The notes beneath the pieces were generated by a model. It saw only the letters and a program-made list of their open reading frames with translations. It did no database searches and was not told the origin of the DNA. Both the position numbers and the translations under genes were made by a program. Positions 35,275-50,439 of a DNA stretch of 50,439 bases are shown piece after piece; positions within the stretch are counted from its first letter, which is position 1, and every line of letters begins with the position of its first letter. Origin of the DNA: Patescibacteria group bacterium (GTDB lineage: Bacteria > Patescibacteriota > Minisyncoccia > Phycocordibacterales > Phycocordibacteraceae); NCBI GenBank assembly GCA_038064495.1, contig JBBTSZ010000008.1, forward strand, positions 1 to 50,439, in the 5' to 3' direction.

Positions 35275-35487
35275 TTGCATATGGCATATCAAGCAGAACG
35301 AGAAGAAATAGAGCACAAGAAGTTTGTTGACTACAAGGACGTCGCGTACCTTCGTCAGTTCACGAACCCGCATGCAAAGATTATGGGTAAGAAGCGCACT
35401 GGCACTTCCGCAGCGCGTCAGCGCGAAGTAGCACTTGCCATCAAGCGCGCTCGTTTTATGGCACTTATGCCATATCTTTCCGCGTAA
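35275..35487 (+). CDS. rpsR: 30S ribosomal protein S18
   Basis: FVDYKDVAYLRQFTNPHAKIMGKKRTGTSAARQREVALAIKRARFMALMPY. Confidence 0.9.
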   Translation: MHMAYQAEREEIEHKKFVDYKDVAYLRQFTNPHAKIMGKKRTGTSAARQREVALAIKRARFMALMPYLSA

Positions 35488-35504
35488 CGGACGACACAAA
35501 AGAT

Positions 35505-35724
35505 AAAGGGCCCGCTTCCGCAAGGAAACGGGCCCTTCGAGCATGACTCCCTTTCGGGACCCCGTAGGGTTCGCCATCACACTCGGAACAGTAGCTCATA
35601 TGACTGTGTTACCGAGGCCCATCTGAGGCCAGTCAGTGAACAAGCTTCTAGGTAAATTACTCAACCTACAGACGCTGTATCTTCGCCCGTTTCCCCGCCT
35701 CAGCAGGCAACTTTGAAACTCTCT
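35505..35724 (-). ncRNA. candidate structured sRNA, unit 1 of a tandem pair (family unknown)
   Basis: Minus-strand promoter TTGAAG-17 nt-TATGTT (35759-35731). Ends in hairpin gggcccg...cgggccc plus a T-run (35505-35538). Shares four conserved blocks with unit 2. Confidence 0.6.
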
Positions 35725-35761
35725 ACCGCAAACATACACCAATGAGGGCGTCGCTTCAAAT

Positions 35762-35983
35762 AGTAAAAGGGCTCCGCGCGAACGCGGAGCCCTGCAAGTG
35801 AAAGCGCCCTTTCGGGACTCCCTTAAGGAGTTGATAGCCATCACTTGGAACGATATAGCTCAATGACCGTGACGTAGGGGGTAGTAGCCTACAGGAGGCC
35901 AGTCAATAGGGCTTTTCTCAGGGATTGCTCCCTTTCGCAGACGTGTATCTTCGCCTGTCGTTGCGCCGTCCTGCAGGCTAGCT
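35762..35983 (-). ncRNA. candidate structured sRNA, unit 2 of a tandem pair (family unknown)
   Basis: Minus-strand promoter CTGAAA-17 nt-TATTCT (36018-35990). Ends in hairpin gggctccgcg cgaa cgcggagccc followed by TTTTAC on the minus strand (35762-35793). Confidence 0.6.
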
Positions 35984-36203
35984 GATTGCAGAATAGGAAC
36001 GGGTGCAGCCCTTTTCAGGATCTCGTACTCATGAGAAAACCACACCCGGACAATAACTTTTCAACCCGGTCAGGCGCACCCGCAAAGGGCAAGGCGTATG
36101 AAAAGTCTTTAGGTAGGGTTACCCCATCCTCAGGTGCGTATCCCACCTGTTCGTCGACCCAGTGCGGGTAACTGAAACGTCTACGAAGCACTATACAGAG
36201 GTT

Positions 36204-36248
36204 TTAGGCTTTTTCAACTCGCTCCACGTATTCGCCAGTCTCGGTGTT
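36204..36248 (-). repeat. displaced duplicate of the efp 3' end (last 14 codons plus stop)
   Basis: 45 nt matching 36890-36934 with 2 differences. Both are silent in the efp frame: GCC versus GCG (Ala), and TAA versus TAG (stop). Confidence 0.85.
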
Positions 36249-36346
36249 AAGGAGAAAAACTGAACTCGTGTATTTACGTCTAAAATAACTTATGTTATAA
36301 AAGTTCGGGTGTGTAGAATGACTCTGCACGAAAAAGGAGAAAATAG

Positions 36347-36826
36347 ATGACACGTTTTGGATTCATTGCTCTTGTGGCATTCGGAGTTCTTGTTGCGTGT
36401 ACTCAGCAAAAAAAGGTTGCTGAAAATGATGCGGCTCAAATTGCTGCGAAGTGCGTAGGGTGGCCGACCTCAATCGTGCAAACCAGCGCACCCTTGCAAA
36501 GGACACCTCGTGCTGAGCAGGCGCCTTATTTCAATTTCACCAATTCGGCGTCAGTCACCGTTTCGGTAAATGGAAAGTGCGGTCCCCTCGCACAGACTCA
36601 CTTCATGTCCCTGACTCCTCTTCATTCTCTTCCGCCACACGCAATCACAGTTGTCGGAGACTACACTGAGGGTAGCCCCGTCTACATCCTTTTCCTTATG
36701 GCAGAAGATAAGAAGGGGAACCGTGATTTTATCGGGATGAAGGGCGTTATTGGTGTGAATCTCAAGATGCCCACCCAAGAGCAGGGTCGCGAAACGGTTC
36801 CGACTGACTCAGTACCGACCACGTGA
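36347..36826 (+). CDS. hypothetical lipoprotein
   Basis: MTRFGFIALVAFGVLVAC: signal peptide with lipobox LVAC. RBS aaaggag. No recognisable domain. Lies between the two efp 3'-end copies. Confidence 0.65.
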   Translation: MTRFGFIALVAFGVLVACTQQKKVAENDAAQIAAKCVGWPTSIVQTSAPLQRTPRAEQAPYFNFTNSASVTVSVNGKCGPLAQTHFMSLTPLHSLPPHAITVVGDYTEGSPVYILFLMAEDKKGNRDFIGMKGVIGVNLKMPTQEQGRETVPTDSVPTT

Positions 36827-36889: not shown

Positions 36890-37465
36890 CTACGCTTTTT
36901 CAACTCGCTCCACGTATTCGCCAGTCTCGGTGTTGATGCGGAGCACATCATCAGGATTTATGAAAAGGGGCGTAAGCACCGTTGCGCCCGATTCAAGGGT
37001 GACGATTTTGTTCCCGCCGGTCGCCGTGTCACCCTTTACTGCAGGAGGGGCGTCAGTCACTTTGAGCTCTACCTTAATGGGAATATCAATTGTTACCGGA
37101 TTTTCGTTGTACAGCATCACCTCTACAGGCGCATTCTGAACGAGCCACTGCACTTTGTCGTGAACGGTATCTTCGGGGAAGGAGAATCGATTCTTCGGAT
37201 TACCCACCTCGTTAAACCAACTCTCACCTCGGTTTGTGTAGAGGTACACTCCCTGAATGCGAGAAATATCTGCCTCGGGTACGTTCTCGTTTTGATGAAA
37301 AGAGATTTCAAGCACTTTGCCGGATACCAGATGACGAAGTTTCGTCTGGTTCACGGGCTTTCTCTGCTGCATGCGGAAAACGTGCGAAGAGAGGACTTCG
37401 TACGGGTCACCATTGTAGACAATGACTTTTTTCTGAACGATTTCGTTATACGAGAGAATTGCCAC
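36890..37465 (-). CDS. efp: elongation factor P
   Basis: MAILSYNEIVQKKVIVYNGDPYEVLSSHVFRMQQRKPVNQTKLRHLVSGK..., KGDTATGGNK loop, three OB-like domains. Confidence 0.92.
   Translation of the reverse strand: MAILSYNEIVQKKVIVYNGDPYEVLSSHVFRMQQRKPVNQTKLRHLVSGKVLEISFHQNENVPEADISRIQGVYLYTNRGESWFNEVGNPKNRFSFPEDTVHDKVQWLVQNAPVEVMLYNENPVTIDIPIKVELKVTDAPPAVKGDTATGGNKIVTLESGATVLTPLFINPDDVLRINTETGEYVERVEKA

Positions 37466-49614: not shown

Positions 49615-50439
<825 letters not shown>

What the first reader, a model, noticed from the sequence alone, without database searches (positions are those of the whole stretch)
35505..36030. Two tandem paralogous ~220-nt structured RNA genes (minus strand), each with its own promoter and terminator; family not recognised
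The ~850-bp gap between rpsR (ends 35487) and the lipoprotein gene (starts 36347) has no credible ORF. On the minus strand it holds two units with a ~260-nt period. Shared blocks, in plus-strand coordinates for unit 1 / unit 2, are: ccctttcgggac 35549-35560 / 35807-35818; gccatcac 35573-35580 / 35837-35844; gaggccagtca 35625-35635 / 35895-35905; and cagacg(c)tgtatcttcgcc 35669-35687 / 35938-35955. Between the blocks the sequence differs but pairing potential is kept. In unit 1, ctgaggc (35623-29) pairs with gcctcag (35697-703); in unit 2, cctacagga (35888-96) pairs with tcctgcagg (35969-77) with one G-U. The taggt/accta hairpin of unit 1 (35649-68) is replaced by aggga/tccct in unit 2 (35920-33). 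This is compensatory change between paralogues. Each unit has a minus-strand -35/-10 pair with 17-nt spacing (TTGAAG/TATGTT at 35759-35731; CTGAAA/TATTCT at 36018-35990). Each ends in a GC-rich hairpin followed by a T-run on the minus strand. By eye it does not match the cores of RNase P, SRP, tmRNA, 6S, T-box or ZTP RNAs.
Basis: seen in the sequence. Interest (0 to 1): 0.72.

Follow-up and report, generated by a model that had tools for sequence, protein, structure and literature searches.

The report
Two tandem novel structured small RNAs
The gap between rpsR and efp in this Paceibacteria (CPR) genome holds two diverged tandem copies of a roughly 210-230-nt, pseudoknotted small RNA that matches no Rfam 15 family, has only a handful of relatives in groundwater CPR bacteria and phage-like contigs, and has no known function.

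Summary
On the minus strand there are two homologous units, u1 at about 35725-35495 and u2 at about 35985-35758. Each ends in a strong intrinsic terminator.

Rfam 15 has no match for them or for their relatives. I found relatives in three other Paceibacteria lineages, always between efp and rpsR (L108, L120, L017). Three shorter copies lie on two repeat-rich contigs (L109, L111); L111 is phage-like.

The RNA has two modules:
- **5' domain:** a three-way junction (P1, P2, P3; P3 is capped by a GNRA loop) plus a helix GACUG/CAGUC that forms a pseudoknot with P1.
- **3' domain:** a stem S capped by two adjacent hairpins with UACG-type and GAAA tetraloops. It contains the near-invariant 19-mer ACGGGGUCCCGAAAGGGAG.

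Compensatory changes support stem S (8 of 8 pairs), P1, P3 and the pseudoknot.

- Promoters are the weak point. The proposed -35/-10 pairs match only 8 of 12 positions.
- A stronger promoter further upstream (36217-36190) may also drive u2.
- The family is rare and patchy, and it sits in a recombination hot spot.
- Function is unknown. My best guess is a trans-acting structured RNA that binds a protein or another RNA.

The parts
35495..35725 (-). Unit 1 (u1): whole small RNA from the approximate 5' end to the end of the terminator U-run
   Evidence: Alignment to u2, L108 and L120. Fold z = -3.6. Covariance-model hits: R2 at 35708-35580 (77 bits) and R1 at 35585-35538 (43 bits).
35617..35708 (-). 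u1 5' domain. P1: 35708-35697 pairs with 35629-35617. P2: 35689-35684 pairs with 35674-35669, loop AAGAUACAG. P3: 35668-35661 pairs with 35656-35649, GUAA loop.
   Evidence: Curated alignment A8 and pair counts. A constrained fold with these helices is within 0.4 kcal/mol of the minimum free energy.
35601..35635 (-). u1 pseudoknot helix: UGACUG (35635-35630) pairs with CAGUCA (35606-35601). The 3' strand of P1 lies between the two strands.
   Evidence: Paired in all four full-length RNAs. L108 has GAUCG/CGAUC instead, a change on both sides at two pairs. RNAalifold predicted the same helix on an unedited MAFFT alignment.
35538..35585 (-). u1 3' module: stem S (CGAG...AUGGC / GUCAU...CUCG) capped by hairpin CCC-UACG-GGG and hairpin UCCC-GAAA-GGGA. 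Contains the 19-mer ACGGGGUCCCGAAAGGGAG.
   Evidence: Alignment A5, pair counts and model R1.
35495..35538 (-). Terminator T1: 15-pair hairpin at 35538-35505, then a U-rich tail. It also faces the end of rpsR, so it is probably bidirectional.
   Evidence: Terminator scan; inverted repeat I3.
35758..35985 (-). Unit 2 (u2): whole small RNA from the approximate 5' end to the end of the terminator U-run
   Evidence: Fold z = -4.3, and the minimum-free-energy fold contains P1, P2 and P3. R2 hit at 35978-35842 (101 bits). R1 hit at 35845-35797 (41 bits).
35887..35978 (-). u2 5' domain. P1: 35978-35965 pairs with 35899-35887. P2: 35957-35952 pairs with 35943-35938, loop AAGAUACA. P3: 35933-35929 pairs with 35924-35920, GCAA loop.
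   Evidence: here the constrained fold equals the minimum-free-energy fold.
35864..35905 (-). u2 pseudoknot helix: UGACUG (35905-35900) pairs with CGGUCA (35869-35864).
35797..35845 (-). u2 3' module: stem S (AAGUGAUGG / CUUUCACUU) capped by hairpin CUCC-UUAA-GGGAG and hairpin CCC-GAAA-GGG.
35758..35793 (-). Terminator T2: 11-pair hairpin at 35793-35768, then a U-rich tail.
   Evidence: inverted repeat I4.
35731..35759 (-). Weak promoter-like pair for u1: TTGAAG, 17 nt, TATGTT (8 of 12 consensus positions).
   Evidence: Read from the sequence. Below the threshold of the scan. The same TATGTT hexamer precedes the related RNA in L120.
35990..36018 (-). Weak promoter-like pair for u2: CTGAAA, 17 nt, TATTCT (8 of 12 consensus positions).
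   Evidence: Read from the sequence. Not reported by the scan.
36190..36217 (-). Stronger promoter-like site: TTGAAA, 16 nt, TATAGT (10 of 12). It lies inside the duplicated efp 3' end and could drive a longer transcript that runs into u2.
   Evidence: It is the only site the scan reported. L108 and L017 also have -10-like hexamers right after the efp stop.
36025..36183 (-). Upstream leader ("unit 0"). It is not homologous to the units and is not notably structured.
   Evidence: Fold z = -0.87. No significant similarity to any unit or relative.

Best explanation
The two units are tandem paralogous genes for a previously undescribed family of structured small RNAs.

**Architecture, supported by comparison with relatives.** Each RNA has a 5' domain and a 3' domain, followed by a strong intrinsic terminator.
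- The 5' domain is a three-way junction of P1, P2 and P3. P3 carries a GNRA loop. P1 is locked by a pseudoknot helix, GACUG/CAGUC.
- The 3' domain is a long stem S capped by two adjacent tetraloop hairpins.

**Transcription, inferred only.** Each unit probably starts at a -10-like hexamer 11-25 nt upstream of P1. Unit 2 may also be reached from the stronger promoter at 36217-36190.

**Function, a guess.** The RNA most likely acts in trans as a folded particle that binds a protein or another RNA. Candidate contact surfaces are:
- the P2 loop GAAGAUACA;
- the GAGCUA loop;
- the near-invariant 19-nt two-hairpin cap.

I do not think it acts as a cis leader, because no gene follows it on its strand.

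**Origin.** The family belongs to the accessory genome. It sits in a variable spot between efp and rpsR. Its 3' module also occurs alone, behind its own promoter-like sequence, on two other contigs (L111 is phage-like; L109 is repeat-rich with weak phage-family matches).
For: **Homology and structure**
- The two units are homologous.
- Full-length relatives lie between efp and rpsR in L108 (nhmmer E = 2e-62) and in L120-L123 (E = 1e-10; 3e-23 with the curated profile).
- The 3' module is also in L017, twice in L109 and once in L111.
- Stem S: 8 of 8 pairs change on both sides and 94% of cells are paired, against 37-62% when the partner is slid by 1-3 columns.
- 5' domain plus pseudoknot: 94% of cells paired, against 34-43% when slid. 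Ten pairs change on both sides, two of them in the pseudoknot.
- RNAalifold found the pseudoknot helix, P3 and the terminators on an unedited alignment.
- The P1+P2+P3 fold is the minimum-free-energy fold, or within 0.4 kcal/mol of it, for u1, u2 and L120.

**Transcription unit**
- Both terminators are strong.
- A -10-like hexamer precedes every family member.
- No ORF in the gap hits Pfam.

**Constraint**
- Four-fold degenerate sites of the neighbouring efp gene are saturated (22-38% identical). The RNA 5' domain is 56-68% identical.

**No cis target**
- The next gene downstream, rpsR, is on the opposite strand.
Against: - There are no transcript data, so the promoters, the RNA ends and even expression are inferred.
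- Only four full-length sequences from three lineages, plus five partial or short ones, were found. I made the structural alignments by hand to fit the helices, which inflates the pairing statistics.
- The family is absent from the same site in most close relatives. That fits a dispensable or decaying element as well as a functional one.
- L120 lacks the conserved 19-mer cap, and the P2 loop differs in L108. Neither is therefore essential to every member.
- No target was found. Within the 50-kb window, the complement of the P2 loop occurs exactly only in the RNA genes themselves.
- An alternative 5' helix (GCCUG with CRGGY) is also conserved, so the fold may not be unique.
Confidence: 0.55

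Rival explanations
1. The RNAs are 3'-UTR elements of efp, not independent genes. They would be made by read-through from efp, or from a promoter embedded in its last codons, and would act in cis. Their job would be to stabilise or terminate the efp message and to insulate it from the convergent rpsR operon.
For: In L017 and L108 the RNA begins right after the efp stop codon, with no terminator in between. In the window the best promoter sits in the copied efp 3' end. The ancestral layout is efp followed by a terminator facing rpsR. T1 is probably a bidirectional terminator.
Against: In the window and in L120 an opposite-strand gene with its own terminator now separates efp from the RNA, yet the RNA is kept. 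Most relatives manage with a plain 50-90-nt terminator. A pseudoknotted junction with conserved loops is far more than a terminator needs. The short forms in L109 and L111 are not next to efp.
Confidence: 0.13
2. Each unit is a ligand- or protein-sensing switch. Its terminator would decide whether transcription runs on as antisense RNA into the convergent rpsR-ssb-rpsF operon. The two units in series would sharpen the response.
For: The aptamer-like complexity: junction, pseudoknot and tetraloops. A conserved alternative pairing of the 5' strand, GCCUG with CRGGY, is paired in all four sequences and shows one compensatory change. Complete units, each with its own terminator, stand in tandem, as in tandem riboswitches. 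All CPR copies point into rpsR.
Against: I found no overlap or competing pairing between stem S and the terminator in any member (sequences). The terminators are long and strong. The alternative fold is 3-14 kcal/mol less stable. The orientation towards rpsR follows from the inherited gene order, so it is not independent evidence.
Confidence: 0.08
3. The units are cargo or remnants of a mobile element or phage that landed in a recombination hot spot. Any function would serve the element (for example its regulation, or defence and counter-defence) rather than the host, or the units may be decaying.
For: The distribution is patchy among close relatives. The same gap holds different inserts in different lineages, including small opposite-strand genes. 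An exact 41-nt copy of the efp 3' end flanks the neighbouring lipoprotein-like gene. The 3' module occurs on L109 and L111. An L111 ORF hits phrog_19300 at E = 1.4e-17, and an L109 ORF hits a ParB-like phage family weakly.
Against: There are no terminal repeats, integrase or transposase near the units. Nothing matched in the phage and plasmid collections or in IMG/VR. Helices are kept by compensatory change across lineages whose synonymous sites are saturated. That argues against decay. This reading overlaps with the main one and does not exclude it.
Confidence: 0.17
4. The region is duplicated non-functional intergenic DNA, and its predicted folds are by-products of GC-rich sequence.
For: There is no expression evidence. 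The sample is small. Promoter matches are weak.
Against: Folding z-scores are -3.6 and -4.3. Compensatory changes occur in several helices across four lineages. A 19-mer is kept exactly in unrelated contexts. Sequence identity is far above the saturated neutral sites next door.
Confidence: 0.05

Closest known systems
Orphan structured bacterial ncRNAs such as the raiA motif RNA (also ROOL, GOLLD, OLE)
   Same: A stand-alone RNA of about 200 nt between unrelated genes. It has multi-helix junctions, a pseudoknot, conserved loop and junction nucleotides, no downstream gene to regulate and no known function. This comparison rests on my own knowledge of those RNAs.
   Different: There is no sequence or structure match to any of them in Rfam 15. 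This RNA is much rarer, is modular (its two domains occur separately), and occurs in CPR bacteria and phage-like contigs rather than Firmicutes or Actinobacteria.
3'-UTR-derived small RNAs with a promoter inside the upstream gene (MicL and DapZ type)
   Same: In L017, L108 and the ancestral layout of the window, the RNA starts right after efp. Its -35 element lies in the last efp codons, and it ends at the shared terminator.
   Different: Those small RNAs are short, Hfq-dependent and act through a linear seed. This RNA is large, highly folded and has no identified seed or target. It also persists when uncoupled from efp.
Tandemly duplicated trans-acting small RNAs (OmrA/OmrB, PrrF1/PrrF2, multiple rsmX copies)
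   Same: Two diverged paralogues lie head to tail, each with its own terminator and promoter-like sequence.
   Different: The family, fold and host are unrelated. The identity between the copies (about 61% in the 5' domain) is no higher than between lineages. The duplication is therefore old, or the copies arrived separately.
Tandem riboswitches (complete aptamer-plus-terminator units in series)
   Same: Two complete structured units, each followed by an intrinsic terminator, on one strand.
   Different: No ORF follows on that strand. No aptamer family matches. No terminator/antiterminator competition was found.

Membership tests
Any Rfam 15 family (including 6S, SRP, RNase P, tmRNA, T-box, ZTP, TPP, fluoride, c-di-GMP-I/II, raiA, HEARO, hammerhead, twister, phage pRNA) | A match to the family covariance model at or above its gathering score | tested here: not met
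   No match in 35400-36400 at gathering score. At E up to 10 the only matches are terminator look-alikes of 12-20 bits, against cut-offs of 34-80. Relatives L017, L108, L109, L111 and L120 have no match either.
6S RNA | A rod-like fold in which the 5' and 3' ends pair around a large central bubble | tested here: not met
   P1 closes only the first 92 nt or so, and the 3' end is an independent terminator hairpin.
Riboswitch or cis-regulatory leader | Lies upstream of, and on the same strand as, the gene it controls | tested here: not met
   Downstream on the minus strand there is only the convergent rpsR. The layout is the same in L017, L108 and L120.
Riboswitch or cis-regulatory leader | An expression platform whose terminator competes with an aptamer helix | tested here: inconclusive
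   I saw no S-stem/terminator overlap on inspecting u1, u2, L108, L017 and L120. An alternative 5' helix is conserved but is 3-14 kcal/mol weaker.
Independent small-RNA gene | An intrinsic terminator at the 3' end | tested here: met
   T1 at 35538-35505 and T2 at 35793-35768, each followed by a U-rich tail. Relatives have terminators as well.
Independent small-RNA gene | Its own promoter and a discrete transcript | not testable with these tools
   Only weak 8-of-12 hexamer pairs for u1 and u2, and a 10-of-12 site at 36217-36190. No transcript data are available.
Structured RNA (general) | Helices maintained by compensatory substitutions among homologues | tested here: met
   Stem S: 8 of 8 pairs change on both sides. 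P1, P2, P3 and the pseudoknot together: 10 such pairs, with 0 of 500 shuffles reaching the observed value. Caveat: 4-7 sequences, aligned by hand.
Mobile element (IS, MITE or integrative element) | Terminal inverted repeats or target duplications around the unit, or a recombinase gene | tested here: not met
   No such repeats bound the units and no recombinase is nearby. The 41-nt direct repeat flanks the neighbouring lipoprotein-like gene, not the RNAs.

The most novel reading that the evidence does not exclude
This could be a new class of modular, pseudoknotted RNA that moves horizontally between ultra-small CPR bacteria and phage-like elements. Its near-invariant two-tetraloop cap would be a handle for a conserved protein. 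Its 5' domain would be a ligand- or protein-responsive switch or catalytic core, for example in phage-host conflict or in antisense control of the ribosomal-protein operon it points into.
Probability: 0.15. Interest if true: 0.8.

Novelty: new member of a known kind. Interest (0 to 1): 0.6.

Why it matters
CPR (Patescibacteria) genomes are tiny, and I found no published description of their non-coding RNAs beyond the universal ones. This is a complex folded RNA kept in duplicate in such a genome. One of its modules also occurs on phage-like contigs. Together these point to a function worth the cost, possibly tied to mobile elements or to the episymbiotic lifestyle.

The work also gives a concrete structural model that can be tested directly by probing, pull-down and metatranscriptomics:
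- a three-way junction;
- an H-type pseudoknot;
- a GNRA/UNCG-capped stem.

The finding also flags the efp-rpsR gap as a variable hot spot. In different lineages it collects different structured elements and small surface-protein genes.

Tried and rejected
- **Rfam.** Gathering and permissive scans of the window and of all relatives found nothing.
- **Sequence searches of 80 related genome loci.** nhmmer and blastn over about 1.4 Mb around efp gave only a partial hit in L017.
- **Covariance models.** R1 (3' module) and R2 (5' domain) searched over about 1.4 Mb found no member beyond those already known.
- **Fuzzy search.** A search for the 19-mer with up to 3 mismatches over 1.5 Mb found no new member.
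- **Metagenome scan with the 19-mer.** Seven loci were returned. Four are one coding gene hit by chance, and three are real: L108, L109 and L111.
- **IMG/VR scans.** Four scans (17-mer, 17-mer variant, P2 hairpin, P3-to-pseudoknot pattern) gave none or only chance hits.
- **BLAST against phage and plasmid collections.** Neither the units nor L109 and L111 matched anything.
- **EF-P look-ups.** All 12 were used. Most close lineages carry other things at this site: an L086-type hairpin, an L096-type region or small ORFs. Only the P0009 lineage (L120-L123) has the RNA.
- **Literature.** Searches for CPR non-coding RNAs and for the 19-mer string found nothing relevant.
- **Coding reading.** No Pfam hit for any ORF in the gap.
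- **Target search.** The complement of the P2 loop has no exact match in the window outside the RNA genes.
- **Lipoprotein 5' region.** I considered pairing between the P2 hairpin and 36267-36281 upstream of the lipoprotein gene. I rejected it because that stretch is the gene's likely -35 region, not its mRNA.
- **L027.** I considered it a relative of L017 through a shared 5' hairpin. I did not include it because its 3' part is a plain hairpin and R1 does not find it.
- **P4.** I considered a P4 hairpin between P1 and stem S. Its register differs between members and it competes with the pseudoknot, so I left it unresolved.

Full report
**1. What is in the sequence**

The window comes from a Paceibacteria (CPR/Patescibacteria) genome. 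EF-P relatives carry names such as Candidatus Paceibacterota, and the same contig is in assembly GCA_964357455.1.

Between rpsR (ends 35487, plus strand) and a lipoprotein-like ORF (36347-36826, plus strand) there is no credible gene. ORFs of 58-111 aa exist, but none hits Pfam. None is called in the public record.

On the minus strand there are two homologous units. The units align end to end with 74% mean column identity. Their local-alignment score is about 18 SD above shuffles. Both fold better than shuffled sequence, with z = -3.6 and -4.3. Each ends in a strong intrinsic terminator, at 35538-35505 and 35793-35768.

**2. It is not a known family**

Rfam 15 gives no match at gathering score anywhere in the gap. 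At E up to 10 it gives only weak terminator look-alikes. The relatives found later also have no match. Literature searches for CPR non-coding RNAs and for the conserved 19-mer found nothing.

**3. Relatives and genomic setting**

In most related Paceibacteria, efp and rpsR converge on a short gap that holds only a terminator. The RNA family occurs at this site in only a few lineages.

| Locus | What it carries |
|---|---|
| L108 (Hainich groundwater) | Full-length copy directly after efp |
| L120-L123 (EF-P 90% identical to the window's) | Clear 5' domain, nhmmer E = 1e-10, between a 101-aa opposite-strand ORF and rpsR |
| L017 | 3' module behind a different 5' part |
| L109 (two copies) | Shorter RNA with the 3' module behind an extended -10-like sequence (TGCTATACT); contig is repeat-rich, with a weak ParB-like phage-family hit |
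| L111 (one copy) | Shorter RNA with the 3' module behind a -10-like TACAAT; an ORF hits phrog_19300 at E = 1.4e-17 and another resembles Lar |

No further member turned up in any of the following:
- about 1.4 Mb of related DNA searched with two covariance models;
- IMG/VR;
- the phage and plasmid collections.

The family is therefore real but rare and patchy.

**4. Structure**

The RNA has two modules.

*5' domain* (u1 35708-35617; u2 35978-35887). This is a three-way junction:
- P1 is the closing helix, up to 13 pairs with an internal loop or bulge.
- P2 has the loop GAAGAUACA. L108 has a variant of this loop.
- P3 is capped by a GNRA loop, GUAA or GCAA.
- The block GACUG just 5' of the P1 3' strand pairs with CAGUC 8-17 nt beyond P1. 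This makes an H-type pseudoknot.

On a hand-curated alignment of u1, u2, L108 and L120, 94% of cells are paired, against 34-43% when partners are slid. Ten pairs change on both sides. In L108 the pseudoknot reads GAUCG/CGAUC, a double compensatory change. RNAalifold on an unedited MAFFT alignment independently predicted this helix, P3 and the terminators. Folds constrained to P1+P2+P3 equal the minimum free energy, or lie within 0.4 kcal/mol of it, for u1, u2 and L120.

*3' domain.* After a conserved UUCC comes stem S. It is capped by two adjacent hairpins, CCY-UACG-GGG and UCCC-GAAA-GGGA. Together they contain the 19-mer ACGGGGUCCCGAAAGGGAG, which is identical in u1, L017, L108, L109B and L111.

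Across seven copies, all 8 pairs of stem S change on both sides. Examples are AUGGC/GUCAU, GAUGCGG/CCGCAUC, GAAUGCAG/CUGCAUUU, GCCCGCCGC/GCGGCGGGC and CGCCAGCCC/GGGCUGGCG. No shuffle out of 500 reached the observed score.

In L120 stem S is kept but carries a plain hairpin instead of the cap. The two modules are therefore separable.

A hairpin loop or 5' element with GAGCUA(C) accompanies the 3' module in most members.

*Strand.* G-U pairs, the tetraloop types and the terminator direction all fix the strand as minus.

**5. Constraint**

Four-fold degenerate sites of efp between these lineages are saturated, at 22-38% identity. The RNA 5' domain is 56-68% identical. The identity between u1 and u2 (61%) is no higher than between lineages. 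The duplication is therefore old, or the copies were acquired separately.

**6. Transcription (inferred only)**

The scan did not report them. In their favour, every family member has a -10-like hexamer 11-25 nt upstream of its first conserved helix, and u1 and L120 share TATGTT.

The only site the scan reported is TTGAAA-16-TATAGT at 36217-36190. It lies in a copy of the efp 3' end. L108 and L017 have -10-like hexamers in the same position right after the efp stop. About 160 nt of unrelated, poorly structured sequence follows, with no clear terminator before u2. Unit 2 may therefore also be made as the 3' part of a longer RNA.

**7. How it most likely works**

No gene follows on the minus strand, so this is not a classical leader or riboswitch. 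The terminators are strong and do not overlap stem S.

The following features fit a trans-acting folded RNA that binds a protein or RNA partner:
- an elaborate fold;
- conserved loops;
- a near-invariant cap shared with unrelated mobile contexts;
- tandem duplication;
- its own transcription signals.

They do not fit a linear-seed antisense regulator. This step is inference, and no partner or target was identified.

The rival readings are set out with their evidence in the rivals section:
- an efp 3'-UTR element;
- a switch gating antisense read-through into rpsR;
- mobile-element cargo;
- non-functional DNA.

An alternative 5' helix, GCCUG with CRGGY, is paired in all four sequences and has one compensatory change. 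It is 3-14 kcal/mol less stable than P1+P2. It may be a folding intermediate or a switch state, and I leave it open.

**8. Verdict**

Its interpretation is supported except for the unverified promoters. What is there is a new family of a known kind: an orphan structured small RNA. It has a pseudoknot and a modular build. It lies in a variable hot spot of a CPR genome, and one of its modules also occurs on phage-like contigs.

The limits are the small number of homologues, my hand-made alignments and the lack of any expression data.

Noticed in passing
window 36208-36248 and 36894-36934: An exact 41-nt direct repeat. The 3' end of efp (last codons, ...NTETGEYVERVEKA) is duplicated 686 bp away. 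The two copies flank the 159-aa lipoprotein-like ORF (36347-36826), which has its own promoter-like site and terminator. It looks like a cassette inserted at the efp 3' end.
   Followed up: partly
L086 4577-4712; also L087, L094, L118, L124, L126, L127: The closest EF-P lineages carry a different conserved element right after efp, of about 85 nt. It is a long hairpin: GGGUAAUUAAUCGGUGGG...CCCACCGAUUAACUACCC. Rfam has no match for it.
   Followed up: partly
L096 4577-4780; L010, L015, L027 and L038 just after efp: Other lineages have other long gaps after efp that look structured. L096 folds with z = -4.1 and L027 with z = -4.2. Several start with a -10-like hexamer at the efp stop codon. None is related to the window's RNA and none has an Rfam match.
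   Followed up: partly
L103 (39 aa), L115 (67 aa), L117 (57 aa), L120 2166-2471 (101 aa): Small opposite-strand ORFs without Pfam or PHROG hits are inserted between efp and rpsR in different lineages. This gap is therefore a hot spot for small accessory genes.
   Followed up: partly
window 36025-36183 (minus strand): A stretch of about 160 nt lies between the strong promoter-like site (36217-36190) and unit 2. It has no homology to the units, no significant fold (z = -0.87) and no clear terminator.
   Followed up: partly
L109 (LAZR01001451.1), minus strand about 1620-1530, 1500-1470, 1320-1290 and 320-290: Four tandem copies of about 22 nt (GGAGCAACTTAACCCCTTAGGTA). There are also three copies of a palindromic, operator-like TTGAC-N4-GTCAA repeat followed by ATCTTCCGCC. 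These lie near the two short RNA copies and a ParB-like ORF.
   Followed up: no
A8 columns 1-5 with 23-27 (u1 35708-35704 with 35689-35685; u2 35978-35974 with 35957-35953): The 5' strand of P1 (GCCUG) can also pair with the 5' strand of P2 (CRGGY) in all four full-length RNAs. In L108 all three partners changed together: G to A in the 5' strand, and C to U in both possible partners.
   Followed up: yes
window 49615-50439: The start of a 23S rRNA gene. Relative to the bacterial consensus it has extra segments of about 54 nt and about 19 nt within the first 400 nt (alignment). As far as I recall, rRNA insertions are common in CPR bacteria.
   Followed up: no
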